A stretch of 64,000 nucleotides of DNA, taken from NCBI GenBank assembly GCA_018819345.1, contig JAHJQG010000064.1, forward strand, positions 33 through 64,032, given 5' to 3'. Positions 25,171 through 41,522 of the stretch are shown here, in pieces. This DNA comes from Nanobdellota archaeon (GTDB taxonomy: Archaea; Nanobdellota; Nanobdellia; Woesearchaeales; CG1-02-33-12). The translations under genes were made by a program, and so were the position numbers. Each line of letters opens with the position of its first letter. The first letter of the stretch is position 1. The notes under the pieces were generated by a model. That model did not search any database, was not told the DNA's origin, and saw only the letters and a list, made by a program, of their open reading frames with translations.

Positions 25171-26442
25171 ATGGACACAGTAAATATAATTTATGTCAAA
25201 GCTCTTAGGGAAAATGGCCAGAAAGATATGCCGGACCAAAGAATAAAACAAGCAGTTGAGAATATAAATGAAACATACAAAAGAGTTGGTGTGCCATATA
25301 AACTGAAGTTATTTGATATTGAATCTTTTTTAAACAAGTTTAGCAAAAAAGAATTGACTGAAATCATTGGAACTGATGGCAGAAAATCAGACTTAATAGA
25401 AAAAATACAAGAGGAAATTCCATTTGAGGAAGCAAGAAGAAGAGAAGGAGTTATATTAAAAGATGGAGAATGGTACCATAATGACAAAAAGCTTGAACCC
25501 CTTAAGTTAGAAGACATAACAATTGATTATGAGAATTTTAAATTCATAAGGAAGTTTGATTTTCATCAAGATCCTGAAAAATATGATACAAATGGTTGGA
25601 AAATACATTGTATGTTTAATAAAAAAGATCAAAATAATATAATTCATCAAGTTAAGTATTCTAAGAAACAATTTGCTGAAAAATATGTTCCTAAATTAAA
25701 AAATAAAATCAAAGAAGTATTTGAAGACAAAGTAAAAAAATATAATAACATAAAAAGATTAGAAAATTTGATTAATGATTACTTAACTAATAGTTACTTA
25801 AAAGGAAATGTGGAGGCATTTAATAAAAATTACAAACCTTATGAGTTACCAAGCATTAAAATGATAGATTTATGTATGATTTATCTAAATTCCATACAAG
25901 ATAAACCAAAGAAGAAATTTGAGTTTGAAAGATTTATTGAAATAATAAATAATGGATTCAAAATAAATAGTGAAGGGTATTTAATAAGGATAAAACCTTC
26001 TCAGGGGTATGAATCGGCAGATTATCCCTATCTCAATAAACTAACTAAATTTATTAATCAACAAGAAGGTAATAATAAAAAATTATATGTATTAACAGAT
26101 AAATTTTCACCAAATGTAAAAATAATTCCCTCGGACAAATTATTTTACTTTATGTTTAGGCAATATAACGATTTTTATAGTGGTATAAGATGTGTAGGCA
26201 ACTTAAGCAACCTAAGAGAAGAAAGTGTAAGATTTCTATTAGAACATGAGTTGTGTCATTTGTTAGATAATGATTGTGATGATGTTGGGGACAGTAAATT
26301 TACTATTCATAGTATGAGTGATACAAGACTAATGTCTGCTCCGGCGCATTATGTTGATTTAAGAACTGGGAAGATTGATTTTAACTTAGGAAAAATTTCA
26401 GATGAGTCTGTAAGGGAAGCCTACAAAAACATAATAAAATGA
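25171..26442 (+). CDS. hypothetical protein, first gene of the accessory array; contains HELCH (HExxH)
   Basis: ORF of 423 aa, Lys/Asn-rich. The single HExxH occurrence EHELCHLLDNDCDD lies near the C-terminus. Confidence 0.4.
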   Translation: MDTVNIIYVKALRENGQKDMPDQRIKQAVENINETYKRVGVPYKLKLFDIESFLNKFSKKELTEIIGTDGRKSDLIEKIQEEIPFEEARRREGVILKDGEWYHNDKKLEPLKLEDITIDYENFKFIRKFDFHQDPEKYDTNGWKIHCMFNKKDQNNIIHQVKYSKKQFAEKYVPKLKNKIKEVFEDKVKKYNNIKRLENLINDYLTNSYLKGNVEAFNKNYKPYELPSIKMIDLCMIYLNSIQDKPKKKFEFERFIEIINNGFKINSEGYLIRIKPSQGYESADYPYLNKLTKFINQQEGNNKKLYVLTDKFSPNVKIIPSDKLFYFMFRQYNDFYSGIRCVGNLSNLREESVRFLLEHELCHLLDNDCDDVGDSKFTIHSMSDTRLMSAPAHYVDLRTGKIDFNLGKISDESVREAYKNIIK

Positions 26443-26472
26443 TATTTCTTATAAATTGTTTTGAATAATCTC

Positions 26473-26530
26473 CGGTTTATTTCTAAGAATTAACATTATG
26501 TTCGGAAAAATGCCTCTTTTTTCTCAGAAA
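26473..26530 (+). promoter_or_regulatory. conserved upstream element, copy A (CGGTTTAT...TTCGGAAAAATGCCTCTTTTTTCTCAGAAA)
   Basis: Near-identical to copy B at 29165-29223 and related to copies C and D. It is followed by an A/T-rich TATA-like stretch. Confidence 0.5.
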
Positions 26531-26724
26531 CTATTATTAAAACATTTTATTCCACTAGTCTGTGACTAGTGGTTTATAATTGAATAAAATGTGCTCAAGA
26601 GTGAGGAGGCCGAGCCAGCAGGGCGAGCATGCTGCCAGTCTATGACTGGCAGTGCCTCCGAGCTTTTGACAAATATTTATTTCATTTAAATGTTTATTAA
26701 AACAAATTTTCGAGGTAAAATAAA

Positions 26725-27129
26725 ATGGAAGAAAATATGTCTTATATTGCAAGTATATCACTTAGATTTGGAGGGGAGAGTATAATTAAAGATGTAACCA
26801 AAAAATTGAATAAAACACCCAATTTAACAATTGAGCAATTGATAAATTCCCTAATAAAAGATGAAGGGAATTTTAATGAAGAAGAAAAAGAGATAATGAA
26901 TTATATTAAGTTTGATATGCAAAGACGCAAAGAATCAGGATGGCATAGATTTAGATTAGGTGTAAAAGCATTAAATGAGTCTGGTGAATATAGGACTTTT
27001 CCAACCAATGATGGCGATAATATTACAAAAATAAACCGTACAGAAATAGCAAAAAACTACTTTGAACCAAGAAAAATTGAGGGTACGAGTTATAAAGGAT
27101 TGGATTTGGAGGTCTATGCAAGAGGATGA
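26725..27129 (+). CDS. small cysteine-free protein, paralogue A (ends ...LDLEVYARG)
   Basis: Aligns along its whole length with 29284..29724 (PNLTI, LIKDxGF, EEKEIM, LNExG, IAKxYFEP, GLxLEV). A GAGGT ribosome-binding site lies 8 nt upstream. Confidence 0.6.
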   Translation: MEENMSYIASISLRFGGESIIKDVTKKLNKTPNLTIEQLINSLIKDEGNFNEEEKEIMNYIKFDMQRRKESGWHRFRLGVKALNESGEYRTFPTNDGDNITKINRTEIAKNYFEPRKIEGTSYKGLDLEVYARG

Positions 27130-27161
27130 AAAAAACACATATAGCTTAATTATTGAATATT

Positions 27162-27224
27162 TTCCGTTTAAAAAGTAAAATCTGTAAATATAACGGAAAT
27201 TCTCATCTTTTTTCTTGGAAATGC
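27162..27224 (+). promoter_or_regulatory. conserved upstream element, copy C (AACGGAAATTCTCATCTTTTTTCTTGGAAATGC)
   Basis: Shares the CGGAAA-N14(T-rich)-GGAAA core with copies A, B and D. It lies about 35 bp upstream of the 27257 gene. Confidence 0.45.
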
Positions 27225-27256: not shown

Positions 27257-27763
27257 ATGGAATTAAAAAGAACCATGGGAATTTTGTTTTTGACAGGTGC
27301 TATTGCAGCAACAAGTTATCTTGGTGCCGGATGTGCAAAAACAGAGAAAACAAAACCCATTGTTCAGAAAAAGGTGATTGTGGTGACTGAAAAACAAGAG
27401 CAGCCAATGTATGGCATTGCCGGAAAAAATATTGATGAGTTTTTGGATTATACAGAACAAATTATTAAGGAAAATCATGAGGAGTTTAAGGATTACATTC
27501 TGAATATAAGCAAAATTGGTATTGACAAAGGTTATGATAAAGAGATAGCAAACATGTTCAGTGATGAGCTTCTAGAGAAAAGAATAAGTGAGATGCCTAA
27601 TGAGAGAAAGCTCAGGATAATAAAGCCATTAATAAGTGAAAAAATTGGTAATACATATAATAAAATTGTAGATTTTGCTGAAGAACAAAAGCCAAAAGTC
27701 AAAGAATTCTATAAAAACCTGGAAAAGAAAGCCAACGATTATCTAAAAGGGGGTGAAGAGTGA
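27257..27763 (+). CDS. putative secreted protein or lipoprotein
   Basis: Signal peptide with the lipobox-like LGAGC. Confidence 0.45.
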   Translation: MELKRTMGILFLTGAIAATSYLGAGCAKTEKTKPIVQKKVIVVTEKQEQPMYGIAGKNIDEFLDYTEQIIKENHEEFKDYILNISKIGIDKGYDKEIANMFSDELLEKRISEMPNERKLRIIKPLISEKIGNTYNKIVDFAEEQKPKVKEFYKNLEKKANDYLKGGEE

Positions 27764-28000
27764 ATGGGCCTTATCAGATTTGGCTTTAAGGTATTGAAGT
27801 ATTTTGCGATATTCTCCATTGGGTATTACATGGGTGGCGGATGCGAAAAAATAGACATAAATAATGAAATAAAAAAAGACATCAGTTATACAAGACCTGC
27901 TTATTACCAGACTGTTGATAAAAAAGTTATGAAAGATATCACACAACTTAATGGGCTTGAAAAAAGCCTAGCATTATATTATCCAATAAATAAAAAATAA
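27764..28000 (+). CDS. small putative lipoprotein
   Basis: Hydrophobic N-terminus followed by GGGC. Confidence 0.35.
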   Translation: MGLIRFGFKVLKYFAIFSIGYYMGGGCEKIDINNEIKKDISYTRPAYYQTVDKKVMKDITQLNGLEKSLALYYPINKK

Positions 28001-28006
28001 TAAAAG

Positions 28007-29095
28007 GTGAGAAAAATGGATGAAGATTTAGTAGAAAAAATTAAATCAAACAGAATGAATTGTTCAAAAAACAACCAAGGGTCAGTAATTGAAAAACTTA
28101 AAAAATATGGGGTTTTAGAAGATAGGTATAAAAATAAGTATTATCCAGAAGAAATCTCAATAGTAGCTACACTAAAAAATTCAAGAAGACCTTCAAGTGA
28201 GGCTGATTTCATTGGACTAGGAGAAACTGTGAAAGATATAGCTAAATTAAATCTGGAGATGAACAGAAAACTTCTTGCCGGTAAACCAATCCCATACAAA
28301 ATTTTTGTATATTCAGTAGATTTTATTAAAACAAAAATCTTTGGTAAAGAGGCATACTCAATAGAGGACATATTTGACAGACAAATAAATAATATAAAAA
28401 ACCTGGATTCAAACTTAACATGTATAATTTTTAGCTCAAGAAAGGAATTATGTAAATTAATAAAATATAGGGGCGAAGTAAATAAAGAATGGGAGGGTAA
28501 CATAAAAAAATATAATAAATTAGAGAAAGAAGGAAAAATAATAAAGCAATTATATTCAGAAGCAGATGAAGAATTTAAATCAACAAAAAAAGGTGATGAG
28601 AAATATTTTACTCTTAAGGATGCATGTGAAAACTTAAAAAGGGAGTTAGATGGAATTTCACACCAAAAAGATCTTGCCGCTAATAAAGTAAAAGACAGGG
28701 ATAAAGAAGATAATATTCTTAGGGATCTTGAAGACATGCTTACTACTGGAATAAAGGTTTGTGAAACAGTCAGTGATAAAACGGGGGGAATACTACGTTA
28801 TGTTATAAACACAAAAAAACAATGGGATACCCTCGTTTCCGGAGGCAGGATTGTTGAAGCATTATATGAATCTGTTGCCATGTTGGGTAATTATTCAAAT
28901 AATTTACATGGGAGATTAAATGAAGGTATAAAAAAGATGGGTGGCGTTGCAAATAATCCAAATGTCCTTAATAGCTATTATTTAAAAACACATAAAGGGA
29001 TTAAACAAATAGCAGATAATGTTTCAATGGCTCACTTTAATAGAGTTGAAAATTTGGATAATCAAATGAATGAGTATCTTAATAGTACTGATTAA
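28007..29095 (+). CDS. hypothetical protein (GTG start), coiled-coil rich
   Basis: ORF only. Confidence 0.35.
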   Translation: MRKMDEDLVEKIKSNRMNCSKNNQGSVIEKLKKYGVLEDRYKNKYYPEEISIVATLKNSRRPSSEADFIGLGETVKDIAKLNLEMNRKLLAGKPIPYKIFVYSVDFIKTKIFGKEAYSIEDIFDRQINNIKNLDSNLTCIIFSSRKELCKLIKYRGEVNKEWEGNIKKYNKLEKEGKIIKQLYSEADEEFKSTKKGDEKYFTLKDACENLKRELDGISHQKDLAANKVKDRDKEDNILRDLEDMLTTGIKVCETVSDKTGGILRYVINTKKQWDTLVSGGRIVEALYESVAMLGNYSNNLHGRLNEGIKKMGGVANNPNVLNSYYLKTHKGIKQIADNVSMAHFNRVENLDNQMNEYLNSTD

Positions 29096-29164: not shown

Positions 29165-29223
29165 CGGTTTATCTCTAAAGATTCACATTAACTTCGGAAA
29201 AATACCTCTTTTTTCTCGGAAAT
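29165..29223 (+). promoter_or_regulatory. conserved upstream element, copy B (CGGTTTATCTCTAAAGATTCACATTAACTTCGGAAAAATACCTCTTTTTTCTCGGAAAT)
   Basis: About 90% identical to copy A across roughly 58 bp. It is followed by CATATAAAAAG (TATA-like) and a GGAGGT ribosome-binding site before the 29284 ATG. Confidence 0.5.
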
Positions 29224-29283: not shown

Positions 29284-29724
29284 ATGGCAGATGAAAATGA
29301 AACGTATGTTGCAAGTGTAAGAAGTGCTATGAACCAGAATGTTGACCCTCTTACAAAAGAGGTCACTGAAAAGTTAATTGAAGAGCCAAACTTAACTATT
29401 GGTGGAATTATAGACTACTTAATAAAAGATGATGGTTTTAATGATGAAGAAAAGGAAGTAATGAAAGGAGTAAAAAAAGAACTAGATGATTCAATGGCAG
29501 CTCCTGAGCGTCTATCTATAAAGGTATTAAATGAGGGGGGAGATGGATATAAATCTTTCACAAATCAAAGGGGAGAAATGACCCAAGTAATAAAAAAAAC
29601 AGATATAGCAAAAGACTATTTTGAACCAGGAACAATTGAAGAGACGCCATATAATGGGTTAAATTTAGAAGTACATTTTATGAGAAAAGCTGGATCTAGA
29701 TTAGATTACATTCTTTCAAAATAA
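29284..29724 (+). CDS. small cysteine-free protein, paralogue B (...LNLEVHFMRKAG followed by SRLDYILSK)
   Basis: Paralogue of 26725..27129. It carries 9-10 extra residues after the aligned C-terminal Gly. Confidence 0.6.
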   Translation: MADENETYVASVRSAMNQNVDPLTKEVTEKLIEEPNLTIGGIIDYLIKDDGFNDEEKEVMKGVKKELDDSMAAPERLSIKVLNEGGDGYKSFTNQRGEMTQVIKKTDIAKDYFEPGTIEETPYNGLNLEVHFMRKAGSRLDYILSK

Positions 29725-29725: not shown

Positions 29726-30970
29726 ATGAAACTGCCAAAATCTAGCTTTAGCAGCATTGCTGAAGAAGCTAAACTTTGCCTTATCTTAAATAATAGACTT
29801 TATACAGTTGAAGTAAGAGAAGAAAAAGGCAATAATTTTTTTTATTTTGCTAATAAAAAGTATTTATTGCAAGAGTCAGAAAGTCTTAAATCTATTGAAA
29901 GAATATACTTAAAAAACAATGAAATTGAATTTAAGTCAATTATTAATAACATATCAAAAAAAAGTTTAAAAGAAGATAACAACTTATTAAAAAAGGATAT
30001 ATTTGAATTACAAAAAAAATATGAACTCCTTGATTTTATAGTTAACAAAGTTTTTCCTCTCTATTCTAAAAACAAGAATAACATAAAATTGAAATCTAAA
30101 AACCAAAAACCAAATCAAAAATTAGAAGAAATTTTAAAACCAAAGATTGATAAACACAGGACTGAGAATCTTAAAGACGGCTTTGAATGCCTATTAAACA
30201 GGGATTATTCTATACTTGAAAAGAACATAATAAAAAATATTAATCTGCTTATATTTAATAGGAATATTTATATTACAAAAAAAATTCCAGAAAAAATTTA
30301 CAAAACAATAAGAAACAGATTTAGGATTAATAATATAAATTACTCATATAAATTCACTGGTTATTTAAAGGATTTAGAGAAAGAATACCTTAAAAATTTA
30401 TCAGATGAAATAACAAAATTTTCAAATCATAGTGGAAATCTTTTAAATGAAAAAATAAATTTGTTAAACAAAAAAAATAATTTTTCTGAGATAGTAAAAA
30501 AACAAATATACCAAGAAGGCCGCATTGGTTTTATTAAAAAAGGGCAAGACCATTATATTTTCCTTGAGCAAGAACCATTTGCTCTTAAATCAATTGATCA
30601 GTCTGATTATTATGTGTTTGAAAAATGTAAGGTTGGTGTTAAATTAAAATTAAATAATCATAAAATAGAACTTGAGTCACCTGTTGTAATTAATAAGTAT
30701 TCTCATCCCTTGCTTTCTGGCTTTGATATGCCAGAACAATATATTTGTACTGGAAACGGCATAAGTAGCAATGTGATAAATGATTTTAATGAAAAAAAAG
30801 ATTATGCTGGAATAGCATACTATCTTCTTAAAGTGGGAGGATTTGCTTTGAGGAACGGGTATTGTCCTGGAATGAATCCCCATCATCATCTAAATAGAAA
30901 CACCTTTTGTAATAATCTTACAACCCTTCAAGAAATAAACAAAAGAGGAGTTGTTGTTGAAAAACAGTGA
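29726..30970 (+). CDS. hypothetical protein; the C-terminal region carries HPLLSGFDMPEQYICTGNG
   Basis: ORF of 414 aa. An HP...C spacing is reminiscent of E2/UBC active sites, but this is weak. Confidence 0.35.
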   Translation: MKLPKSSFSSIAEEAKLCLILNNRLYTVEVREEKGNNFFYFANKKYLLQESESLKSIERIYLKNNEIEFKSIINNISKKSLKEDNNLLKKDIFELQKKYELLDFIVNKVFPLYSKNKNNIKLKSKNQKPNQKLEEILKPKIDKHRTENLKDGFECLLNRDYSILEKNIIKNINLLIFNRNIYITKKIPEKIYKTIRNRFRINNINYSYKFTGYLKDLEKEYLKNLSDEITKFSNHSGNLLNEKINLLNKKNNFSEIVKKQIYQEGRIGFIKKGQDHYIFLEQEPFALKSIDQSDYYVFEKCKVGVKLKLNNHKIELESPVVINKYSHPLLSGFDMPEQYICTGNGISSNVINDFNEKKDYAGIAYYLLKVGGFALRNGYCPGMNPHHHLNRNTFCNNLTTLQEINKRGVVVEKQ

Positions 30971-31829
30971 TAATATGAAAAAATTAGAATATATACTTGA
31001 AAATAATTCAAAAGAAAAAATAGATGAATTGTTTAGTGATTTAAAGATTACTGATTATGCTTATAAAAAAATAAAAGCATATGCTTCTCTAGCCTGCATA
31101 ACTGCTAATGCATCAATTGAATGTGGTGGTTATTTAGTAGCTCTTAAAGAGGATCAGGATTATATTGTAAAGGATGTGTATTTGTCAAAAGATCAAAAAG
31201 TAACAGGCGTAGAATATATCGTTGATTCAGAGCCAGATATGGATTTTCTAAAAGAAATCAAGAATGATGGATATAAAGTAATGGGGTGGTGGCATAGTCA
31301 TGGAAGTATGAATCCTTTTCACTCTGGAACTGATGATGATACATTCAAGAGCATTTATTATAATATTTTTCCGTATAATAAAAAGGAATCAAGTAGAGAA
31401 ATAATTCCTCTTTCAGGAGATTCATTTAAAATTGAGCATCAAACTGATAAAACAGGAAATAATTATGTATTTTTTAAATCAAATAATTTTCTTGAAGATG
31501 TAATTGAGATGAAGGTAGGTAATAATTTTAAATTAAATGATATTGAAGTCAAAGAAATTAAAATAAAAAAATTCAGAGGTATTTCATTTGCATATAGTCT
31601 AGTTGTGAATCGTTTTTATTCTGCAGCACCTTATGCCGAAGTAGCTATCAAACACCCTAAGACTAAGGAAATTAAAATTAACAAGGGGGTTAAAGTAACG
31701 GAAATAATCTCCAATCCAATGTCCTTAGATTATGAGAAAATATTAGATGAAATAAAAACAAGAATCATCTACAAAGGAAAATTTTTGGGGGAAATAACAA
31801 ACAAATATGCAGAATCTGGGGTGATCTAA
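30951..31829 (+). CDS. JAB/MPN (JAMM) metalloprotease, paralogue 1
   Basis: The upstream Glu is in IECGGYLVA. The JAMM motif HSHGSMNPFHSGTD matches H-x-H-x7-S-x2-D exactly. The ORF ends at TAA 31827-31829. Confidence 0.75.
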   Translation: MLLKNSDNMKKLEYILENNSKEKIDELFSDLKITDYAYKKIKAYASLACITANASIECGGYLVALKEDQDYIVKDVYLSKDQKVTGVEYIVDSEPDMDFLKEIKNDGYKVMGWWHSHGSMNPFHSGTDDDTFKSIYYNIFPYNKKESSREIIPLSGDSFKIEHQTDKTGNNYVFFKSNNFLEDVIEMKVGNNFKLNDIEVKEIKIKKFRGISFAYSLVVNRFYSAAPYAEVAIKHPKTKEIKINKGVKVTEIISNPMSLDYEKILDEIKTRIIYKGKFLGEITNKYAESGVI

Positions 31830-32084
31830 ATTCCAGAGATAACAGATACACAAGAAAGAATAGAAGGATGGAATCAAAAAAAACTTGATGATTCTTTAGT
31901 AACAATAATTGGGGCTGGACCATTATCCAATTTTGTTTTATCAAATCTTGTTGGTCTGCAAGTTGGAAATATAAGGATAATTAATAATGAAGATTATACT
32001 AATAATTCTAATGAATTCTTATTTTTTGATTATTATAACAAAAAAGAAAAAGTTAGGAAAGTTAAGCATCTTGAAAAAATAATT

Positions 32085-33338
32085 ATGCAAATGAATCCCA
32101 AAATAAGAGTTGGCGGATATTATTCTCCTCTTTTTTATGATTTAGTTGGCAAACCAAATATACTTATTGATCTTACAAATGACCCATGTTCAAAATTTAA
32201 GAGCATAAAGATTTCGGATAAATTGAAAATACCTTTTATTACTGCTTCTACAAGCAAGAATAAGGGCAAGGTGATGGTTTACACCCCTATGAGCAAGACA
32301 GAAAGAATAATTCTTTCTAAAAAGAACTATACGCAAAGCATAGATGAATATTTATTTCCTGATTTTGAAAATTGCCAACAGGGCAATATAACAAGCGGTC
32401 TGATTGCTGGATTAGTAACAGAGGAAATAAGAAAATCTGTAATTAAATTATATGATTATGATAAATTGATGAAAAAAGGAGTAACATACAACCTCCTGTC
32501 TAATAGGCGGTTCAAAGATGAATGTGAGATAACTCTTGGTATATCTGATTATCTGAATGAAAAAAACCTGTTTAAGAATAAAAAAGTTGCAATAATTGGT
32601 GCAGGTTCAATAGGAAATTTTGTTGGACTTGGTTTATCCCTAATGAATTTTGATAAGATATACTTAATTGATATGGATAAAATTGAGGAGAATAATAAGA
32701 ATAGGCAGATTCTTTACACTCTTGGGAATTATGTTGGTGAAAAAAAAGTTGAAATATTGTCTAGATTAATGAATAAAATAAATCCAACTACTCAATCTAT
32801 AGGAATTTATGGAAAATTAGGAAATAATCTTAATAAAGAAGAAAAAAGAAAACAAGTTAAATTAATTAATGAATCAGAATTTCTTAAGCTTGATTGTGAT
32901 TTGATTTTGGGTTGTCTTGATAATATTTCTGCAAGAGCATTTGCTAATAGGTTGGCTGTAAAAAACTCTATTCCTTACATAGATGGAGGAACTAGTCCTT
33001 TCTCTGGACAGGTAAGAGTCTATAGTCCTGGAAAAACAGCATGTTTAGATTGTCAGGAGAACATTTATTCTCAGGCAATTGAAGAGCAAAATAAAGAAGA
33101 AATTTCTGACCATTGTACTGCAAATGATCACGAGCCAAGTGTCGTCATGTCAAACCAGATAATTGGCGCAGCAATTCTGGGTGAGATAAGAACACTATTT
33201 TATCCGGAAGTTTATGGACAACCAGTGATGAATGGCATGCTATACAACTCTTTTGATCGAGATAGGCTTGTTTTGAATAAGATCAAATGTAAACCAAATA
33301 AAGATTGTCTTTGCAGTAAAAAATTTTATAATAAATAA
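32085..33338 (+). CDS. ThiF/MoeB/E1-like adenylyltransferase; the N-terminus may extend upstream to 31830
   Basis: KVAIIGAGSIGNFVGLGL...IYLIDMDKIEENNKNRQ (GxGxxG, D.D, NRQ), then a CLDC...C cluster. The 85 in-frame codons upstream at 31830-32084 have no canonical start and encode IIGAGPLSNFV...IRIIN. Confidence 0.7.
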   Translation: MQMNPKIRVGGYYSPLFYDLVGKPNILIDLTNDPCSKFKSIKISDKLKIPFITASTSKNKGKVMVYTPMSKTERIILSKKNYTQSIDEYLFPDFENCQQGNITSGLIAGLVTEEIRKSVIKLYDYDKLMKKGVTYNLLSNRRFKDECEITLGISDYLNEKNLFKNKKVAIIGAGSIGNFVGLGLSLMNFDKIYLIDMDKIEENNKNRQILYTLGNYVGEKKVEILSRLMNKINPTTQSIGIYGKLGNNLNKEEKRKQVKLINESEFLKLDCDLILGCLDNISARAFANRLAVKNSIPYIDGGTSPFSGQVRVYSPGKTACLDCQENIYSQAIEEQNKEEISDHCTANDHEPSVVMSNQIIGAAILGEIRTLFYPEVYGQPVMNGMLYNSFDRDRLVLNKIKCKPNKDCLCSKKFYNK

Positions 33339-35627: not shown

Positions 35628-36320
35628 ATGGATTTGTGGGAAATAATAAACAAGAGAATAATAAGAAAATCACAAAAGAAAGATAATGATAGCCTTCTAA
35701 ACAGGATTAAAAAGCAGAATTCAGAAAATAAGTTGAAATGTATTAGGAAGAGCAACCAAAATACACACCTCATTGAAGAAATCAAAAAAGCTTATCATAA
35801 AAAAATTTTATATGTTCCTGATTTTAATATTGATGATATTAAAAAGGATTATAATTTTTTACTAACTGACAAAAGTGTTGAAAACCCCTTTATAATAAAT
35901 TCTGAACTTGTAAAGATAATTAAGGATTATACTGCTAATATAAAGAATGATGAGGAAAAAGCAAAAAGAATATTTAATTGGATACACCAAAATATAGAAT
36001 ATGATAACTTAAGGAATGATAATAGATATCAAAACTCAAAGGAAACTTTAGAGCATAGACTAGGAATTTGCGGCGAGATGGCTTTTTTATATATAACAAT
36101 GGCACGGGCAGCAGGGCTAAAGTCAAAATATGTAAGTGTTAAGGTTGACTGCGATAACATAAAAGTTAATCATGGATGTGCTGTGGTTTATGTTCAAAAT
36201 AATCCTATTCTTGTTGATCCTGCTTATAATAAGTTTGATATTCATCATAGGAAATACAGTATCTTAAATGATGATGATATCACTAAAAATTTTGTTTACT
36301 GGAGAAATGGAAAATCATAA
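35628..36320 (+). CDS. transglutaminase-like (papain-fold) protein
   Basis: Cys-His-Asp core: GICGEMA, NHGCAVVY, LVDPAY. Confidence 0.6.
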   Translation: MDLWEIINKRIIRKSQKKDNDSLLNRIKKQNSENKLKCIRKSNQNTHLIEEIKKAYHKKILYVPDFNIDDIKKDYNFLLTDKSVENPFIINSELVKIIKDYTANIKNDEEKAKRIFNWIHQNIEYDNLRNDNRYQNSKETLEHRLGICGEMAFLYITMARAAGLKSKYVSVKVDCDNIKVNHGCAVVYVQNNPILVDPAYNKFDIHHRKYSILNDDDITKNFVYWRNGKS

Positions 36321-36374: not shown

Positions 36375-37877
36375 TTGGAAGAAAGAGTCAAATCAATAGT
36401 GAGCACTATAAAACCTGATTTTAAAAGGATCTCTGATGTAATTGAGGACAATGTAATCTTAAATTATTTTATTGATAACTTAAAAAAAGAAGTAACTCAA
36501 AGAGATATCAATTTTGCAGACTTAAGGAATATTATTTCATGTGACTATTACCTTAGATTTAACAAAAAAGACAAGAAAGAAATTATCCAATTGTTGAATA
36601 AACAGGATTCAAATGCATTAATTGATTATTGTACATTGGGTTTAATCAAAAAAGAAAAGCGCAGATACAATAAAAAACCAAGTGTGTCCAATCCCTTTTT
36701 AAAGTATTGTAATGATATGAATGTTGAAATTCTTTCTACATCTTATATAGGCTTATTAAAGAACAATGAAATAAAAAGCCTAATAAAACAATCTCATGAT
36801 ATAAAAGACTTAAAGGCAATAATTTTTATGGATGTTCTGATGCCAATGCTTGATAAAGCTCATTTAGAGAAAATAATTAATTCTGAACTGAATCCTGAAC
36901 AAAAAGCACTTGAATTTGCAAAGGAGTATCAGATTTGCAAAGACATGAAAAGAATCAAAGAAATATTTCTTAATTTAAATGAAGAAATAAAACATTTAGA
37001 GGGAGATTTTTTTAGATTAACTGGAAAGTCAGGTTTAGAGGAACTCCAAGCACTTGTTAATATAAGAAATAAGATAATCAGACACAAGGAAAAATACAAT
37101 AATCCTGAGCAGTACATAACAAATGCTCAATTATTGACAAAAGATATTCTTAATAATGATAATTCTTTAAATCATATGATAGAAGAAGGCATTGACAAAT
37201 CAAATTGCGTAAAGAAAGAGGTTGAAATCAATATAAAAAAGGAAATTGATGTCAGCTATTCAGAATATAAAAAAATAAATGATGACTTGTCTGAAGGAAG
37301 CTTTGAGTCATATTTATACAAAGATAAATTAAAAGAAAAAGAAAAAAATCTAAATAAAATAATTGAAGTGTTTGATTTTGCTGGTGATGAAAGGTTAGAT
37401 GAAGTATGGATGCTGAAAAAAACAGTTGAATCAAAAATAAAAACATTTGAGGATATAATTTATGAAAGATACCAGATAAATTCATACATCAAAAAGGTAA
37501 ATCAGCATAATAGTGTTCTTGAGGCAGCATTTCAGGATCAGGTTTTTGAAGAAGACATTTCTCTTTTGTGTGATGTAAAAAAGATTATTTCAACTAACTT
37601 AGAGTCATCTGTTTATCCTGAAAACAAAGCTATTCTTGAAGAATATAAATCACATTTACAGCAATTAAAAGAGTTATTTGATAAAAAAGTAATTAATGGT
37701 ATAAAAATAATAAATAAAAGTAGTTTTGATATGGAAGAAAAACATAATCTAAATGATAACAGCAAAAAAGGTTATCTTGGTTCTTTTGTAAGAAAGAAAA
37801 AATTTGAATCTGCTAAAAAGGAGTTATCAGAATATCGTAACCAGTTTAATAAAATTAAAGAATTAATCCAAACATAA
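36375..37877 (+). CDS. hypothetical coiled-coil protein
   Basis: ORF of 500 aa; heptad-rich. Confidence 0.35.
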   Translation: MEERVKSIVSTIKPDFKRISDVIEDNVILNYFIDNLKKEVTQRDINFADLRNIISCDYYLRFNKKDKKEIIQLLNKQDSNALIDYCTLGLIKKEKRRYNKKPSVSNPFLKYCNDMNVEILSTSYIGLLKNNEIKSLIKQSHDIKDLKAIIFMDVLMPMLDKAHLEKIINSELNPEQKALEFAKEYQICKDMKRIKEIFLNLNEEIKHLEGDFFRLTGKSGLEELQALVNIRNKIIRHKEKYNNPEQYITNAQLLTKDILNNDNSLNHMIEEGIDKSNCVKKEVEINIKKEIDVSYSEYKKINDDLSEGSFESYLYKDKLKEKEKNLNKIIEVFDFAGDERLDEVWMLKKTVESKIKTFEDIIYERYQINSYIKKVNQHNSVLEAAFQDQVFEEDISLLCDVKKIISTNLESSVYPENKAILEEYKSHLQQLKELFDKKVINGIKIINKSSFDMEEKHNLNDNSKKGYLGSFVRKKKFESAKKELSEYRNQFNKIKELIQT

Positions 37878-37878: not shown

Positions 37879-39948
37879 ATGAACTCTGAACTTGAAAGCC
37901 TGCTAAAAGATACTGAATCAAAATTCAATGATTTAGACAGAAAAATAAGCAATAATATAAATGATGAGCAGTCAAAAATAGATTCTCTTAAGAAAAAAAT
38001 CAAAAAATCGATTATTGGATTATTAATAATTGTTTCTCTTAGTTACTTTTCTGTTGAAGCCTACAAAGTTAAGAGAAAGCAGGATATCTTATTTGAAAAT
38101 TCTAGATATTACCAGGTAATGGAAGGCGAAACCTTGGAATCAATAGCAGAAAAAATCTGCAATGATAACTATAACATCAATAAAATAATTGCCTTCAACA
38201 AAAGATTTGATGAAGACTTTGATTCCATAGCCGAAAAGGGAGAAACAATACACTTTCCAAAAAAATATGTTAAAAATAGTGGAGAATTGAATAATTTTAG
38301 TTGGGAAAAGGCTGAATTAAATAAAAAAATTCAAAAAAACAAAAATCTTGTGGAAATAACATTCAATGGAAATATCACAAAACAGAGAATAGATAAGATT
38401 TATGAGATAATTGATGATCTTGATTCAAATTCAGAAAAACTTAAAATCCTCAAGCAAGACAATTATTTCAATAATGATGCTATGCTGCTTCTTGATCAAA
38501 TATTTAATCTTAAAGAGAACATAAAAAACAAAATAGATTCTGAAATAGAAAAAACGGACATTGAATTTAAACTAGTAAATAATATTTTTCATAGTGATAA
38601 CTGGGAAAAACCCGGAACCATTGAAAAGCTTGAGAATTTAATATCAAAAAACAATAAGATAAGATATTCATATGATTGCTTCAGGCAGCGTGATAAAATA
38701 ATTGAAACAGAAATAAGTGAACAAAAAATTGAGTCTGCAAAGGAAAAATATGTTAACATATTAGACAACATTATTTATGATATTGGCAAGAATAAGGAAA
38801 ACATTCAAGAGATTGAAAAGAATTTAGTAAATATCTTTAATCTTGGCATAAGGGAAGATGACATAAGCTTACTTAATAAACTAACAAAAAAATCAAATAC
38901 TCTAGCTTCTTATGAATTATGGAAGCAGGAAAAACATATCCAAACTGAAGTAAATAATTATCTAAATAAACTCAATAAATTAAAGAAAAGTATAGATAAA
39001 AAATTCTTTTTTGCAATTGAAAGCATAAGCAACAAAATTAATGAGTTCAAAGAGGAAAAAATTATTGAAACAACATTCAATGAAAACTTAACTAAAGACA
39101 AAGTAAATAATATTTATGATGTTCTTAATGAATTAAGCCAAAGCAAGTCAAAATACAAAATGCTGGAAAATGATTCTTATTTCAGAAAGAATCCTGATAA
39201 TGTGCTTAAGGAAATAGAAAGTTTAGAGAAAAACATAAACATGGGTATAAGCTATGAAATCAAAAAAGCTGATTCATGGCTTTCAAAATTAAAAAGCGAG
39301 CTTTACAATAAGAATTGGGAATCTCCTGGCACTATAGAAGAGCTAGAAAAACTTGATATAGCAAAACAAGAAATAAGGAATGTATATTATTGCTTTGAAA
39401 ATATCGAAAGGCTTGCAGAAGTGGATGATACTGGAAATTATATAAGCAGCAAGAAAGAAGCTTACCTTGCACTTTTGAATAAAGTAGAGGATTATATCAA
39501 CAAAGACAAATATAAGGTTGAGAGCTTACAAAGACAGCTTGACCCCTTACTCAGGCTTGGAATTCAGAACAAAGAGCTGCCATTAATCAGGGAACTCAAG
39601 GAAAAAGCTTCGGAAATAAAATATTACAACGAATGGAAAAATGAAAAAAGACTTGAAGAACAAATTAATGAATACACTGCCAAAATAAATAAATTTAATT
39701 TTGAGGTAAATAATAAGTTTAATTACGCACTTGGTATGATTAGCATAGAGCTCAGCAAATATGAAAAAGAAATTGCATATGGGGAGAAAACAGGAAAGAT
39801 CAAGGGTGCAGATACAAGGCTTAACTACATTGTAGAAAATCCATTGGCAATGATAAAATACAGATATGAATTATTAGGTTATCAAAAAGGCATAGAAAGA
39901 GCAAATAATCTTATAAATAAAATAAATTTTTTTATTGAATATTATTAA
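37879..39948 (+). CDS. membrane-anchored LysM protein with two internal repeats of about 330 aa
   Basis: A TM segment IIGLLIIVSLSYF is followed by the LysM-like YQVMEGETLESIAEKI. Two repeat units each contain NWE(K/S)PGTIE(K/E)LE. Confidence 0.5.
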   Translation: MNSELESLLKDTESKFNDLDRKISNNINDEQSKIDSLKKKIKKSIIGLLIIVSLSYFSVEAYKVKRKQDILFENSRYYQVMEGETLESIAEKICNDNYNINKIIAFNKRFDEDFDSIAEKGETIHFPKKYVKNSGELNNFSWEKAELNKKIQKNKNLVEITFNGNITKQRIDKIYEIIDDLDSNSEKLKILKQDNYFNNDAMLLLDQIFNLKENIKNKIDSEIEKTDIEFKLVNNIFHSDNWEKPGTIEKLENLISKNNKIRYSYDCFRQRDKIIETEISEQKIESAKEKYVNILDNIIYDIGKNKENIQEIEKNLVNIFNLGIREDDISLLNKLTKKSNTLASYELWKQEKHIQTEVNNYLNKLNKLKKSIDKKFFFAIESISNKINEFKEEKIIETTFNENLTKDKVNNIYDVLNELSQSKSKYKMLENDSYFRKNPDNVLKEIESLEKNINMGISYEIKKADSWLSKLKSELYNKNWESPGTIEELEKLDIAKQEIRNVYYCFENIERLAEVDDTGNYISSKKEAYLALLNKVEDYINKDKYKVESLQRQLDPLLRLGIQNKELPLIRELKEKASEIKYYNEWKNEKRLEEQINEYTAKINKFNFEVNNKFNYALGMISIELSKYEKEIAYGEKTGKIKGADTRLNYIVENPLAMIKYRYELLGYQKGIERANNLINKINFFIEYY

Positions 39949-40039
39949 ATAAGGGATTATAACATATGTTACAAGACAACACACACTTTAAATAGCATTA
40001 GTCTCAAATTCAAATATTTTTCTTTTAAAATCGAAAGAA

Positions 40040-40102
40040 TTACGATTATTATGTCAATATTACGGATTTAACGGAAATTCGCGTCTTTTTTCTTGAAAAT
40101 TC
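40040..40102 (+). promoter_or_regulatory. conserved upstream element, copy D (AACGGAAATTCGCGTCTTTTTTCTTGAAAATTC)
   Basis: Same core as copies A-C. It lies about 30 bp upstream of the radical SAM gene. Confidence 0.45.
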
Positions 40103-40133
40103 TTATTAAGAATGTAAGAGTTATATACATAAT

Positions 40134-41522
40134 ATGCATTCACAAAATAAAAAAAAGATTACATTAATTAACACCCCAAAAAAAGTATTTGGAGATACAA
40201 ACACTACAGAATTAGGTATTGATAATTCTTACCCTATAGGACTTTTATTAATTAGCAGCCAATTAAAAAATTATTCTGACAAACTTGGATTAGAAGTTAG
40301 GTTTATTGATGCAAACTTTTATCATAAAAATCCATGGAATATTGCAAATGAAGTACAATCTGACTATATTGGCTTAAATGCAACTTTTCCAAATGTTGAT
40401 ATAGCTAAACTTACTGCAAAATTAATAAAAGAAGCAAACCCTAATTCTAAAATCATATTAGGTGGACCAGCTGCAACCCTTGCACCAGAATACCTCCTCA
40501 ATAATTCTTCGATTGATTATATTGTTATGGGTGAAGGAGAACAAACTATTGTGGAACTAATTAATGCACTAAACTTTTCAAAAGACATTTCAACAATCAA
40601 AGGGATAGCTTATAAATCGCTGGATGAACTAATTATTACTCCTAAGAGAAATCCTATGAATCTTAATGAAACACCACTTATAGATATCTTAGAGATTCCT
40701 GAAGAAATAAGAAAATATTCTAGAGAAATTTATCTTATTACTAGTAGGGGATGTTCTAATTATTGTAATTTTTGTTCAACTCCAACAATTTGGGGAGCAG
40801 GTATAAAAAATTTAAGAGTACAAAGTAATGACCAATTATTTAAAGAGTTAAAGAATTATAAAGACAATGGTTTTGAATTTGATATAGTTCATTTTTTAGA
40901 TGATAGCTTTACCGAAAACTGGGATAGAATTAATAACTTCATAAATCGATGGAATAAATCCTATGGAAAAAAAGGAATATCATGGAGATGCTTATCAAGA
41001 GTCAACGCAATTAATAATAAATATAAAATTAAGAAGATGGTAGAGAGTGGATGTAAATCTGTTTCAGTGGGTGTAGAATCTGCTTCACCCCGGATATTAA
41101 AGGATATTGGAAAGGGGCTTAAAATCAAGGAGGTTGACAATTTTTTGGATATTACCTCTCAATATGGACTCAAAACTAAAGGGTTTATTATGTTAGGATT
41201 TCCAGAGGAAACAGAAGGAGAAGCCATATCAACAATTAATTATATGGTCAATTCAAAATTTGATGAGATTGGAATAAACATTGTGATGGCTTATCCACGC
41301 ACACGCTTATATAATCAGGTCCATAAAAAAGGAGAATTATCAATTCCTAAGTTCAAATCAATAGTTCCAAAGTCATATGACAAAAAAGTTACAAGGTCTC
41401 TAAATAAGTATAGTGCATTACCTACAATATCTTTATCCAAACATCTGGATATTGATAGATTATATTATCTTAAGGAGTTAGGATTCAGATTATTTTATGA
41501 AAAAAGAGAACATATAACTTAA
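40134..41522 (+). CDS. B12-binding-domain radical SAM protein
   Basis: An N-terminal Rossmann-like cobalamin-binding region is followed by CSNYCNFC (CxxxCxxC). Confidence 0.7.
   Translation: MHSQNKKKITLINTPKKVFGDTNTTELGIDNSYPIGLLLISSQLKNYSDKLGLEVRFIDANFYHKNPWNIANEVQSDYIGLNATFPNVDIAKLTAKLIKEANPNSKIILGGPAATLAPEYLLNNSSIDYIVMGEGEQTIVELINALNFSKDISTIKGIAYKSLDELIITPKRNPMNLNETPLIDILEIPEEIRKYSREIYLITSRGCSNYCNFCSTPTIWGAGIKNLRVQSNDQLFKELKNYKDNGFEFDIVHFLDDSFTENWDRINNFINRWNKSYGKKGISWRCLSRVNAINNKYKIKKMVESGCKSVSVGVESASPRILKDIGKGLKIKEVDNFLDITSQYGLKTKGFIMLGFPEETEGEAISTINYMVNSKFDEIGINIVMAYPRTRLYNQVHKKGELSIPKFKSIVPKSYDKKVTRSLNKYSALPTISLSKHLDIDRLYYLKELGFRLFYEKREHIT

What the first reader, a model, noticed from the sequence alone, without database searches (positions are those of the whole stretch)
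25171..41522. A 16-kb array of about 16 co-directional genes may encode an archaeal ubiquitin-like conjugation or defence-type system
All the genes lie on the + strand with short or overlapping junctions. The array encodes two paralogous JAMM/JAB metalloproteases, each with an exact H-x-H-x7-S-x2-D motif and an upstream Glu. It also encodes a ThiF/E1-like adenylyltransferase with GxGxxG, NRQ and a Cys cluster, and two paralogous cysteine-free small proteins with an aligned C-terminal Gly. A transglutaminase-like Cys-His-Asp protein, two membrane LysM proteins, coiled-coil proteins and a B12-binding radical SAM enzyme complete the array. E1 plus JAB plus a small Gly-terminal protein is the core of SAMP/Ub-like conjugation and of bacterial E1/E2/JAB antiphage operons. 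This gene combination, with the shared promoter element described below, is not an arrangement I recognise. No clear E2 or RING was found, so the chemistry could differ, for example direct E1-mediated transfer or transglutaminase-type isopeptide formation.
Basis: partly seen in the sequence, partly recalled or inferred. Interest (0 to 1): 0.85.

Follow-up and report, generated by a model that had tools for sequence, protein, structure and literature searches.

The report
Archaeal ubiquitin-like conjugation gene cluster
A tiny symbiotic archaeon (Nanoarchaeota/DPANN) carries a conserved gene cluster that looks like a complete ubiquitin-type protein-tagging machine: a tag, an activating enzyme built like the eukaryotic one, a previously unnamed candidate carrier protein and trimming proteases, all wired to membrane and cell-surface proteins.

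Summary

The core is four genes in the BilABCD order (Ubl, E2-like, JAB, E1):
- **Tag (29284-29724):** models as a beta-grasp protein. It has a family-wide conserved C-terminal Gly/Gly-Gly followed by a removable tail.
- **Candidate carrier (29726-30970):** ends in a domain with invariant His-Pro...Cys. This domain has about 290 relatives and no Pfam or PDB match.
- **JAB protease (30951-31829).**
- **E1:** the true ORF starts at an ATT codon at 31830, not 32085. It has two ThiF domains, one inactive and one active, like BilD and eukaryotic E1s. A crossover-loop Cys is 100% conserved.

This four-part module recurs in ten further kinds of archaeal locus (DPANN, SM23-78 and unnamed metagenomic contigs).

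Accessory genes:
- two lipoprotein-like genes and coiled-coil proteins;
- a membrane-anchored JAB-HTH protein with a LysM-like domain;
- a transglutaminase-like protein;
- a second Ubl paralogue.

A 28-nt promoter element ties these together. It occurs exactly four times in the 64 kb window.

The 25171 gene is not conserved in relatives and lacks the promoter element. The radical SAM gene is also absent from relatives, but it carries the element.

The E2 fold and the biological role (defence or host interaction) remain inferred.

The parts
26503..26530 (+). Copy 1 of the shared promoter/operator element CGGAAA-N6-TCTTTTTTCT-N-RR-AAA, upstream of Ubl paralogue A
   Evidence: exactly 4 matches in 64 kb, all on the + strand and all intergenic, against 0.04 expected. 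The element is conserved in 13 related loci.
26725..27129 (+). Ubl paralogue A (134 aa, Cys-free, ends ...LEVYARG)
   Evidence: It is 44-45% identical to B. Orthologues in 6 related loci lack the terminal Gly, so its ability to be conjugated is doubtful.
27194..27221 (+). Copy 2 of the promoter/operator element, upstream of 27257
27257..27763 (+). Lipoprotein-like protein (168 aa; signal peptide plus LGAGC lipobox-like motif)
   Evidence: Sequence. It is 76-85% identical in all close loci, with a weak homologue upstream of the module in distant L017.
27764..28000 (+). Small lipoprotein-like protein (78 aa; MGGGC motif)
   Evidence: Sequence. It is 79-86% identical in close loci.
28007..29095 (+). 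Predicted helical/coiled-coil protein (362 aa), hypervariable between strains
   Evidence: Identity is 92% in L001, 68-70% in L006/L012/L013 and 25% in L009. There is a weak homologue in L017.
29195..29222 (+). Copy 3 of the promoter/operator element, upstream of the Ubl-E2-JAB-E1 operon
29284..29724 (+). Ubl precursor B (146 aa): expanded beta-grasp, conserved Gly137, 9-residue tail SRLDYILSK
   Evidence: The model and fold searches support a beta-grasp. The Gly/Gly-Gly plus tail is conserved in 13/13 non-A-paralogue small proteins compared.
29726..30970 (+). Candidate E2: variable N-terminal helical region plus C-terminal 'HP...C' domain (His327, Pro328, Cys341)
   Evidence: The family has 290 representatives. 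Pro and Cys are 100% conserved and His 96% in 115 members. The gene lies next to the Ubl and within two genes of the E1 in every locus examined. It has no Pfam, PDB or PADLOC match.
30951..31829 (+). JAB/JAMM metalloprotease 1 (292 aa): Glu57, H115xHx7SxxD
   Evidence: Prok-JAB 7.5e-10. The best PDB hits are archaeal JAMM1 and Rpn11.
31830..33338 (+). E1 (502 aa from an ATT start): inactive adenylation domain (residues 1-247) plus active adenylation domain, with crossover-loop Cys429 and a Zn site (C405xxC408, C493xC495)
   Evidence: Searches give the start. Each half hits ThiF. The N-terminal half lacks NxRQ. Active-site residues and Cys429 are 95-100% conserved in 24 sequences. The best PDB hit is the NEDD8 E1, UBA3, at 2.4e-15.
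33341..35626 (+). Membrane-anchored JAB paralogue (761 aa): JAB (H127xHx8SxxD), HTH-like region (~400-520), TM helix 565-583, extracytoplasmic LysM-like motif (~648-680)
35628..36320 (+). Transglutaminase-like Cys-His-Asp protein (230 aa, no TM helix)
   Evidence: Transglut_core 1.4e-17. It is present in L006/L008/L013/L014, with two copies near the module in distant L016, and absent from L009.
36375..37877 (+). Helical protein (500 aa) with a large indel between strains
   Evidence: It is 313 aa in L006/L008. A distant homologue occurs in L016.
37879..39948 (+). Type II membrane protein (689 aa): TM helix 41-62, LysM-like motif, long repeated extracytoplasmic helical region
   Evidence: (internal repeat)
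40072..40099 (+). Copy 4 of the promoter/operator element, upstream of the radical SAM gene
40134..41522 (+). B12-binding radical SAM enzyme: a lineage-specific addition that carries the cluster's promoter element
   Evidence: Pfam hits. It is absent from L006, L008 and L009, where the 689-aa homologue is followed directly by UppS.

Best explanation
The cluster encodes a ubiquitination-like protein-conjugation system. Its core is Ubl - E2-like - JAB - E1, the same gene order as bacterial BilABCD.

Inferred sequence of steps:
1. A JAB protease removes the 9-residue tail of the Ubl precursor (29284) and exposes Gly137.
2. The C-terminal, active ThiF domain of the single-chain E1 adenylates that Gly. 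The N-terminal, catalytically dead ThiF domain replaces the second subunit of the usual homodimer.
3. The Ubl moves to the invariant crossover-loop Cys429 as a thioester.
4. It is passed to the invariant Cys341 of the 'HP...C' protein (29726), which acts as the E2. The variable N-terminal half of that protein probably selects targets.
5. The Ubl ends up on target lysines. The two JAB paralogues can reverse this.

The accessory genes place the system at the cell envelope. They are two lipoprotein-like proteins, a membrane-anchored JAB-HTH protein with a LysM-like domain, a surface coiled-coil protein with a LysM-like domain, and a transglutaminase-like Cys protease. A shared operator upstream of four transcription units makes them one regulon.

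What is shown and what is inferred:
- Shown: domain content, conserved catalytic residues, synteny and the regulatory element.
- Inferred: every chemical step, the E2 role and the biological role.

My best guess for the biological role (about 0.4) is a conflict system against viruses or in host-symbiont contact. The reason is that the conjugation genes are swapped as a highly divergent cassette between otherwise similar strains.
For: **Ubl**
- The beta-grasp model retrieves almost only Ubl folds.
- The last strand is followed by 4-7 residues, then a conserved G or GG, then a tail of 0-13 residues. This holds in the 13 non-A-paralogue small proteins compared, from 12 loci. BilA shows the same pattern.

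**E1**
- Both halves hit ThiF: 9.9e-15 for residues 1-247 alone and 1.6e-50 for the whole protein.
- The N-terminal half has EF in place of RQ.
- GxGxxG, D281, NxNRQ, K306, D364 and Cys429 are 95-100% conserved.
- The best solved relatives are UBA3 and UBA2, not MoeB or ThiF.

**E2 candidate**
- Cys and Pro are 100% conserved and His 96% across 115 diverse members.
- The predicted order is helix, four strands, HP loop, Cys, then helices. This is the UBC order.
- hhalign aligns HP...C onto HPN...C colinearly, though without significance.
- The gene sits next to the Ubl and close to the E1 and JAB in 11 of 11 independent locus types.

**JAB**
- The full MPN+ motif is present in every locus.

**Regulon**
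- The 28-nt element occurs exactly 4 times against 0.04 expected and is conserved in relatives.

**Cassette-like divergence**
- L009 versus the window: the flanking genes Lit and UppS and the genes 27257, 27764, 36375 and 37879 are 74-86% identical. The Ubl is 42%, the E2-like protein 41%, the E1 60% and the long JAB 35%.
- L001 versus the window: 28007 is 92% and the long JAB 75%, but the Ubl, E2-like protein, JAB and E1 are 47-57%.
Against: - The E2 assignment has no significant sequence or profile support. Pfam, PDB and PADLOC gave nothing and hhalign gave P = 0.26.
- The second Gly of the GG pair is not universal. Paralogue A lacks the Gly in relatives.
- No E3 and no target are identifiable.
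- There are no hits to defence-system models beyond generic E1 and JAB.
- In all close relatives the locus sits at a fixed chromosomal site between housekeeping genes (L31e, Cbf5 ... UppS). This is unlike a typical mobile defence island.
- The LysM and HTH assignments are below threshold.
Confidence: 0.65

Rival explanations
1. This would be an E2-independent, SAMP-like system. The E1 would activate the Ubl and transfer it to targets directly, as proposed for UbaA/SAMP. The HP...C protein would not be a carrier. It would instead be a substrate adaptor, a scaffold, a cysteine peptidase or the main target.
For: No significant similarity of the HP...C domain to any E2 was found. Archaeal SAMPylation works without a known E2 (established knowledge; PMC2948915 and PMC4443979 were listed). 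JAB1's best curated hit is the haloarchaeal desampylase, though far below cut-off.
Against: A 100% conserved Cys next to a conserved HP turn, in a protein invariably placed between the Ubl and the E1/JAB, is what a thioester carrier looks like. The E1 is a pseudo-dimer with a conserved crossover-loop Cys, like E2-dependent E1s such as BilD and eukaryotic E1s. It scores 41 bits against the 450-bit cut-off of the UbaA model.
Confidence: 0.17
2. This would be a sulfur-carrier or metabolite-biosynthesis system. The small proteins would be ThiS/MoaD-type carriers, thiocarboxylated by a ThiF-like enzyme. They would feed a cofactor, tRNA-thiolation or natural-product pathway that also uses the radical SAM enzyme.
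Against: All ThiF/MoeB equivalog scores are far below cut-off, for example 89.7 against 275. There is no rhodanese domain, no sulfurtransferase and no thiazole or molybdopterin synthase gene in the cluster. Two or more JAB proteases and a Cys-carrier candidate are conserved instead. The radical SAM gene is absent from related loci. The tandem inactive/active architecture is known only from conjugating E1s.
Confidence: 0.06
3. This would be envelope-assembly machinery. The Ubl-like proteins would be structural subunits, cross-linked or processed by the transglutaminase-like and JAB enzymes into a surface or attachment structure. The lipoproteins, LysM proteins and surface coiled coils would belong to that structure. 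Phage lambda tail assembly uses Ubl and JAB domains in a comparable way. E1 chemistry would be secondary.
For: Five of the accessory proteins are membrane or surface proteins. Transglutaminase-like genes recur in the distant locus L016. Ubl plus JAB in phage tail assembly is a known precedent (Iyer et al. 2006, PMC1779556, listed; my own knowledge of its content).
Against: The Ubl, E1, JAB1, the transglutaminase-like protein and the HP...C protein have no signal peptide or TM helix, so they are cytoplasmic. The envelope genes are not conserved in most distant loci, whereas the four-gene core is. The transglutaminase-like gene is dispensable, being absent in L009.
Confidence: 0.07

Closest known systems
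Bacterial BilABCD (Bil, types I and II; Ubl-E2-JAB-E1 antiphage ubiquitination; Chambers et al., PMC10557695)
   Same: - The gene order is Ubl - E2 - JAB - E1.
- The Ubl has a conserved Gly followed by a short non-conserved tail that the JAB must remove.
[quoted passage not shown] It has a Zn site built from a crossover-loop CxxC plus two C-terminal Cys, a catalytic Cys in the crossover region and no UFD domain.
   Different: - This system is archaeal and, as far as the sources name an organism, mainly DPANN. It is not from Rhizobiaceae or other bacteria.
- The E2 candidate has an HP...C signature and a roughly 240-residue N-terminal extension. It shows no detectable similarity to BilB/CEHH.
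- The E1 has a Cys-bearing loop of about 20 residues instead of a roughly 80-residue helical CYS domain. Its N-terminal half hits ThiF (PF00899), not PF14459.
- BilD is not among the 60 matches listed from the PDB (63 matched), whereas UBA3 scores 2.4e-15.
- It has extra paralogues and envelope-associated accessory genes.
- No phage-defence evidence exists for it.
Eukaryote-like ubiquitin operons of Caldiarchaeum subterraneum and Asgard archaea (Ub, E1, UBC E2, RING E3, Rpn11; PMC3082918, PMC5654768, PMC6043591)
   Same: Both are archaeal operons that combine a Ubl precursor processed by a JAMM protease with an E1 and a Cys-dependent second enzyme. The E1's active domain is closest to eukaryotic UBA3 and UBA2 by sequence.
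   Different: - The Ubl here is a 134-146 aa expanded beta-grasp, not a 76-aa ubiquitin homologue.
- No UQ_con or Prok-E2 Pfam hit and no RING protein were found.
- The E1 is a fused pseudo-dimer.
- Envelope-linked accessory genes are present.
Archaeal SAMP/UbaA/HvJAMM1 (SAMPylation) and Urm1 systems
   Different: - Those systems use a single-domain MoeB-type E1 with a dual sulfur-carrier role and no E2.
- Their genes are usually dispersed.
- Here the scores are far below the UbaA and desampylase cut-offs: 41 against 450 and 27 against 130.
Bacterial Bub operons (oxyester E1/E2; Ye et al., PMC11601596)
   Same: Both are prokaryotic E1, E2 and Ubl operons with an associated protease. BubCD appears among the PDB hits of the E1 (3.4e-5).
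   Different: - Bub E1 is a homodimeric peptidase-E1 fusion without a catalytic Cys. It works through Ser oxyesters and uses a Ser-His protease (abstract and section headings).
- Here the E1 loop Cys and the E2-candidate Cys are 100% conserved, and the proteases are JAB.

Membership tests
BilABCD (type I/II) | Gene order Ubl - E2 - JAB (DUB) - E1 | tested here: met
   The order is 29284 - 29726 - 30951 - 31830. The same order is seen in L001, L006-L008, L012-L016, L018-L020. Variants occur in L017, L021 and L022.
BilABCD (type I/II) | Ubl with a universally conserved Gly followed by up to ~9 non-conserved residues | tested here: met
   G or GG plus a tail of 0-13 residues in 13/13 non-A-paralogue small proteins compared. 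Cleavage itself cannot be tested with these tools.
BilABCD (type I/II) | [quoted passage not shown] | tested here: met
BilABCD (type I/II) | E1 with a ~80-residue helical CYS domain in the crossover loop, and an N-terminal half matching Pfam PF14459 | tested here: not met
   Only 20 residues lie between C408 and the conserved Cys429. The N-terminal half hits PF00899 only.
BilABCD (type I/II) | E2 of the BilB/CEHH family (Cys with adjacent His; sequence relationship to BilB) | tested here: not met
   A profile of 32 members found no PDB chain at E <= 10, although the PDB holds Bil E1-E2-Ubl complex entries such as 8tyz. The signature here is Y-x-H-P-x(10-14)-I-C-x-G.
BilABCD (type I/II) | Protection against phage by Ubl conjugation to virion proteins | not testable with these tools
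   No PADLOC hit beyond generic E1-E2 and JAB models
UBC/E2 superfamily (for ORF 29726) | Catalytic Cys about 8-10 residues after an HPN turn, on a helix - 4 strands - helices core | tested here: inconclusive
   HP and Cys are invariant, 14 residues apart in this protein and 10-14 apart across the family. The secondary-structure order fits, but it comes from a pLDDT 36.8 model. hhalign gave P = 0.26. No UQ_con or Prok-E2 hit was found.
JAMM/MPN+ metalloproteases | E ... H-x-H-x7-S-x2-D zinc site | tested here: met
   JAB1 is exact. JAB2 has x8.
ThiF/MoeB sulfur-carrier adenylyltransferases | Score above the curated equivalog cut-off; single-domain homodimer | tested here: not met
   TIGR02356 scores 89.7 against 275, moeB 56 against 377 and UbaA 41 against 450. 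The protein has tandem domains.
Caldiarchaeum/Asgard eukaryote-like Ub operon | Canonical UBC E2 (UQ_con) and small RING E3 in the operon | tested here: not met
   No such Pfam hit on any ORF of the cluster
Transglutaminase-like superfamily | Transglut_core domain with Cys-His-Asp | tested here: met
   64.3 bits against a 23-bit cut-off. GICG146, NHG181 and VDP196 are present.
LysM domain proteins | Pfam LysM at or above the gathering score | tested here: inconclusive
   17.1 and 13.1 bits against a 20.9-bit cut-off. The motifs YMIQKGDTLWDI and YYQVMEGETLESIA are LysM-like.

The most novel reading that the evidence does not exclude
The HP...C domain would be a previously unrecognised Ubl-carrier (E2-type or E2-analogous) family. 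So far it has been seen mainly in archaea. It would work with a fused inactive/active E1 whose active domain is closer in sequence to eukaryotic UBA3 and UBA2 than to any solved prokaryotic E1. Together with the Ubl and JAB they would form an archaeal ubiquitination system that DPANN symbionts couple to their cell envelope and diversify by cassette exchange, to tag viral or host-derived proteins. That would be a fourth independent lineage of prokaryotic ubiquitination, after Bil, CBASS-Cap2 and Bub. It would also be a new data point on where the eukaryotic pseudo-dimeric E1 architecture arose.
Probability: 0.35. Interest if true: 0.85.

Novelty: new variant of a known kind. Interest (0 to 1): 0.72.

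Why it matters
- **Occurrence.** Complete E1-E2-Ubl-protease cascades outside eukaryotes are known from a few bacterial defence systems and a few archaea close to eukaryotes. Here a four-part module recurs in DPANN and other uncultured archaea.
- **New domain family.** Its second enzyme belongs to a domain family with no Pfam or PDB match among the members tested. About 290 representative clusters at 50% identity match it.
- **E1 architecture.** Its E1 has the fused inactive/active architecture regarded as a eukaryotic hallmark.
- **Experiments it opens.** If the chemistry is confirmed, the known diversity of ubiquitin-type conjugation widens. It would also give an experimental handle (four small soluble proteins) on an unnamed Cys-domain family.
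- **Biology of DPANN.** It would link protein tagging to the cell envelope of obligate symbionts, whose host and virus interactions are almost unknown.
- **Annotation.** All current gene calls for the E1 in this clade miss its first 85 codons, because it starts at ATT.

Tried and rejected
**E2 candidate (29726)**
2. I looked for sequence or profile links from the HP...C domain to E2s.
   - Single sequence and 8- and 32-member profiles against the PDB found nothing relevant.
   - Pfam on 8 and 32 members found nothing, and PADLOC on 32 members found nothing.
It gave P = 0.26, although the alignment was colinear.
3. I considered other His...Cys enzymes from my own knowledge: clan CD peptidases, L,D-transpeptidases and sortases. 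I rejected them because the His-Cys spacing (10-14 residues) and the surrounding motifs do not fit. I ran no search for this.

**Other searches and readings**

4. The genome-contig scan with the E1 returned only three near-identical loci.
5. Rfam found no RNA family in the window.
6. PHROGs found nothing meaningful.
7. I rejected a JAB-E1 read-through fusion as the explanation for the missing start codon. In L001 the JAB is in another frame and overlaps the E1 start, yet TAA-ATT and the upstream GGTG(A/G)T are kept.
8. I found no evidence that gene 25171 is a system member. It has no homologue in any related locus and no promoter element.
9. The afdb50 fold library was unavailable.

Full report
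**What is in the window**

The window is AT-rich (about 30% G+C). It comes from a metagenome-assembled Nanoarchaeota (DPANN) genome, because the small protein at 29284 is identical to an NCBI 'Nanoarchaeota archaeon' protein on a 64.5-kb contig.

Between 25171 and 41522 there are fourteen + strand ORFs of at least 75 aa with short or overlapping junctions. Pfam confirms the following:
- two JAB domains (30951, 33341);
- a ThiF domain (32085, E = 8e-41);
- a transglutaminase core (35628, 1.4e-17);
- a B12-binding radical SAM enzyme (40134).

The two JAB proteins are paralogues over 270 residues. The two Cys-free small proteins are 44-45% identical.

- The second JAB has HxHx8SxxD rather than x7.
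- The LysM assignments are below Pfam's threshold, although both proteins have one clear transmembrane helix and LysM-like motifs.

**The E1 is longer than called and has two ThiF domains**

The reading frame of the ThiF gene stays open for 85 codons upstream of the ATG at 32085. It begins immediately after the TAA stop of the JAB gene and contains no ATG, GTG or TTG.

This extension is conserved at the protein level in the window and the nine related loci checked. In the window and the six loci where a JAB gene precedes the E1, the first codon after the stop encodes Ile. The DNA of the window and four of them reads TAA-ATT, preceded 7 nt upstream by GGTGAT or GGTGGT. In L001 the JAB gene is in a different frame and overlaps this point. 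That argues for ATT initiation rather than stop-codon read-through. In the L009 clade, which lacks the short JAB, the same N-terminus starts with ATG.

The 502-residue protein has these features:
- Residues 1-247 on their own hit ThiF at 9.9e-15 over almost the whole profile. They carry EF where ThiF has the catalytic RQ, and the Gly-rich loop is degenerate across the family.
- In the C-terminal domain G257xG259xxG262, D281, N289xN291-R292-Q293, K306 and D364 are 95-100% conserved in 24 family members.
- Cys429 in the crossover loop is 100% conserved.
- C405xxC408 and C493xC495 are each conserved at about 80%.

An inactive plus an active adenylation domain in one chain, a crossover-loop catalytic Cys and a CxxC/C-terminal Zn site are what Chambers et al. 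describe for BilD and for eukaryotic E1s. They contrast this with homodimeric MoeB, ThiF and Cap2. By sequence the active domain is closest to NEDD8 E1 UBA3 (2.4e-15), then MccB, then SUMO E1 UBA2. MoeB (4e-8) and ThiF (3e-7) are more distant. All curated MoeB, ThiF and UbaA models score far below their cut-offs. The E1 is therefore not an ordinary sulfur-carrier adenylyltransferase.

**The small proteins look like Ubl precursors**

An AlphaFold2 model of the 146-residue protein (9-sequence alignment, mean pLDDT 68.5) has strands at both ends, helices in the middle and a disordered tail from residue 134.
- Foldseek's top hits are also Ubl domains: TBCE-Ubl (E = 0.007, probability 0.99), TINCR and UBL3.

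These scores are moderate. Sequence adds an independent argument. The small proteins encoded next to the module in 12 loci align at their C-termini. The last strand, (Y/F)xG(L/I)(D/E)(L/I)xV, is followed by 4-7 residues. Then comes a conserved Gly, which is Gly-Gly in most, and then a tail of 0-13 residues. Examples are RKAG|SRLDYILSK here, TPGG|YI, NPGG|SIKSI, ERGG|LERII, VGG|R and VG|ADE. BilA shows this pattern, and there the JAB must remove the tail before adenylation.

Paralogue A of this window ends directly in Gly. Its orthologues in six related loci end ...MRHMD or ...MRHID with no Gly. A may therefore not be a conjugated modifier in general.

**The candidate E2**

ORF 29726 lies between the Ubl and the JAB/E1, in BilB's position. 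It has no Pfam, NCBIfam, PADLOC or PDB match.

A profile of its last 175 residues found 290 representatives at E <= 1e-3 among 1.84 billion cluster representatives, 97 of them at E <= 1e-10. The domain is always at the C-terminus of proteins of about 300-600 residues. In 115 full-length domain copies the signature Y-x-H-P-x(10-14)-I-C-x-G ... G-Y stands out: Pro and Cys are 100% conserved, Tyr 99% and His 96%.

The structure prediction, made before this deep alignment existed, failed (pLDDT 36.8). Three weaker observations remain:
- Its secondary-structure string is a long helix, four strands, the HP...C loop and then helices. This is the order of the UBC fold.
- hhalign places HP...C on HPN...C colinearly but without significance (P = 0.26).

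I therefore call this protein a candidate E2. The grounds are position, an invariant Cys and consistent topology, not demonstrated homology.

**Synteny**

Close relatives (80-93% identity; L006-L008, L012-L014) keep the whole series:
- paralogue A, 168 aa, 78 aa, ~363 aa, Ubl, E2 candidate, JAB, E1, long JAB, transglutaminase-like, two helical proteins.

In all of them it lies at the same chromosomal place, between L31e/Cbf5/Lit/DUF357 and UppS. L006, L008 and L009 have neither the radical SAM gene nor the following nucleoside-deoxyribosyltransferase-like gene. The 25171 gene has no homologue in any locus.

More distant loci were reached through the E1 (29-42% identity) or through the HP...C domain. 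All carry a small GG-tailed protein, an HP...C protein, a JAB with the full motif and a tandem-ThiF E1 within a few genes of each other:
- L015, L016 and L017;
- L018;
- L019, which carries the protein that NCBI lists from 'Euryarchaeota archaeon SM23-78';
- L020;
- L021 and L022.

L016 also has three HP...C paralogues, two JABs, two transglutaminase-like genes and a kinase. L019 has a ClpB-like AAA+ protein and kinases. L017 has weak homologues of the 168-aa and 362-aa proteins. The core is therefore the four-gene module. The transglutaminase-like gene and the second JAB are recurrent accessories. The envelope proteins are clade-specific.

**Regulon**

A 28-nt element, CGGAAA-N6-TCTTTTTTCT-N-RR-AAA, is followed by a TATA-like TATTAAAA. 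It occurs exactly four times in the 64-kb window, even allowing three mismatches, against 0.04 expected. All copies are on the + strand. They lie in the intergenic regions upstream of paralogue A, the 168-aa gene, the Ubl operon and the radical SAM gene.

The element is present at the corresponding places in 13 related loci. This ties the units together. It also shows that the radical SAM gene, although a recent addition, was recruited with the cluster's own control element. The HTH-like segment of the membrane-anchored JAB (below threshold: HTH_28 2e-4) is a candidate regulator. This is inference only.

**Cassette-like diversification**

Between the window and L009:
- The flanking housekeeping genes and the genes 27257, 27764, 36375 and 37879 are 74-86% identical.
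- The Ubl is 42%, the E2 candidate 41%, the E1 60%, the long JAB 35% and the 362-aa protein 25% identical.
- The short JAB and the transglutaminase-like gene are missing.

Between the window and L001 the 362-aa protein is 92% and the long JAB 75% identical, while the Ubl, E2 candidate, JAB and E1 are 47-57%. The conjugation genes therefore co-vary as a unit that has been exchanged between otherwise similar genomes. The cluster is also slightly lower in G+C than its flanks (28.1% against 31.5-33.1%).

Such a pattern is typical of loci under diversifying selection, such as defence or surface-recognition loci. On the other hand there is no hit to defence-specific models, and the locus is fixed among housekeeping genes.

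**Conclusion**

The most likely reading (0.65) is a ubiquitination-like cascade in four stages:
1. JAB-processed Ubl.
2. Pseudo-dimeric E1 (adenylate, then Cys429 thioester).
3. HP...C protein (Cys341).
4. Target lysines, reversible by JAB.

In this clade it is coupled to envelope proteins and a private regulon. It works like Bil. It is not a sequence-level member of the Bil family, because the E2 and the E1 CYS-domain criteria fail. It is also not a member of the Caldiarchaeum-type, SAMP or Bub systems. I found no description of it in the searchable literature. I rate it a new variant of a known kind. The unverified E2 fold and the unknown biological role are the main gaps.

Noticed in passing
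window 31827-32087: The E1 gene has 85 conserved codons upstream of its first ATG, with no ATG, GTG or TTG among them. The conserved sequence is TAA-ATT with a GGTGAT Shine-Dalgarno-like motif 7 nt upstream, which implies ATT initiation, possibly coupled to termination of the JAB gene. Gene calls in the public collections for this clade (417-467 aa) miss part or all of this conserved N-terminus.
   Followed up: yes
window 26503-26530, 27194-27221, 29195-29222, 40072-40099: A cluster-specific promoter/operator element, CGGAAA-N6-TCTTTTTTCT-N-RR-AAA, is followed by a TATA-like box. It occurs four times in 64 kb against 0.04 expected and is conserved in 13 related loci.
   Followed up: yes
window 29284-35626 compared with L001 and L009: Divergence is mosaic. 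The Ubl/E2-like/JAB/E1 block is 41-60% identical between strains whose flanking and accessory genes are 74-92% identical, as if it were exchanged as a cassette. The short JAB and the transglutaminase-like gene are absent from L009.
   Followed up: partly
window 40134-41956: The B12-radical SAM gene and a nucleoside 2-deoxyribosyltransferase-like gene (Pfam E = 1.2e-4, below threshold) are inserted between the cluster and UppS. They are not found in L006, L008 or L009; the closest relatives (L012, L013) end before this point. The radical SAM protein has a moderate hit to the PADLOC candidate family PDC-M51A (4.5e-12).
   Followed up: partly
window 25171-26442 (HELCH at 26245-26259): This 423-aa ORF has an HExxH motif, no family match and no homologue in any related locus. 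The same position holds unrelated genes of 176-320 aa in relatives, so it appears to be a variable slot at the edge of the cluster.
   Followed up: partly
window 38335-38417 and 39049-39131 (ORF 37879-39948); ORF 36375-37877: The 689-aa surface protein contains an internal duplication of about 238 residues (about 30% identical at the protein level). It is 450 aa in L006/L008. The 500-aa protein has a roughly 190-residue insertion relative to the 313-aa orthologue.
   Followed up: partly
L013 (CAYMFI010000003.1) and L014 (CAYWLA010000034.1): Two species-representative genome bins titled 'uncultured Methanosarcinales archaeon' carry contigs whose copies of the cluster proteins are mostly 68-93% identical to those of this Nanoarchaeota window (E1 89-93%), including the Lit gene in L013. 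This is probably DPANN contamination of the bins. It could conceivably reflect a physical association.
   Followed up: no
L016 18612-21587; L019 1897-5348 and 14307-15911; L020 14487-16364: Distant versions of the module are flanked by Ser/Thr protein kinases. One of these is fused to a methyltransferase. L019 also has a ClpB-like AAA+ ATPase. This hints at links to signalling and protein unfolding.
   Followed up: no
window 26725-39948: The cluster has lower G+C (28.1%) than the left (33.1%) and right (31.5%) flanks.
   Followed up: no
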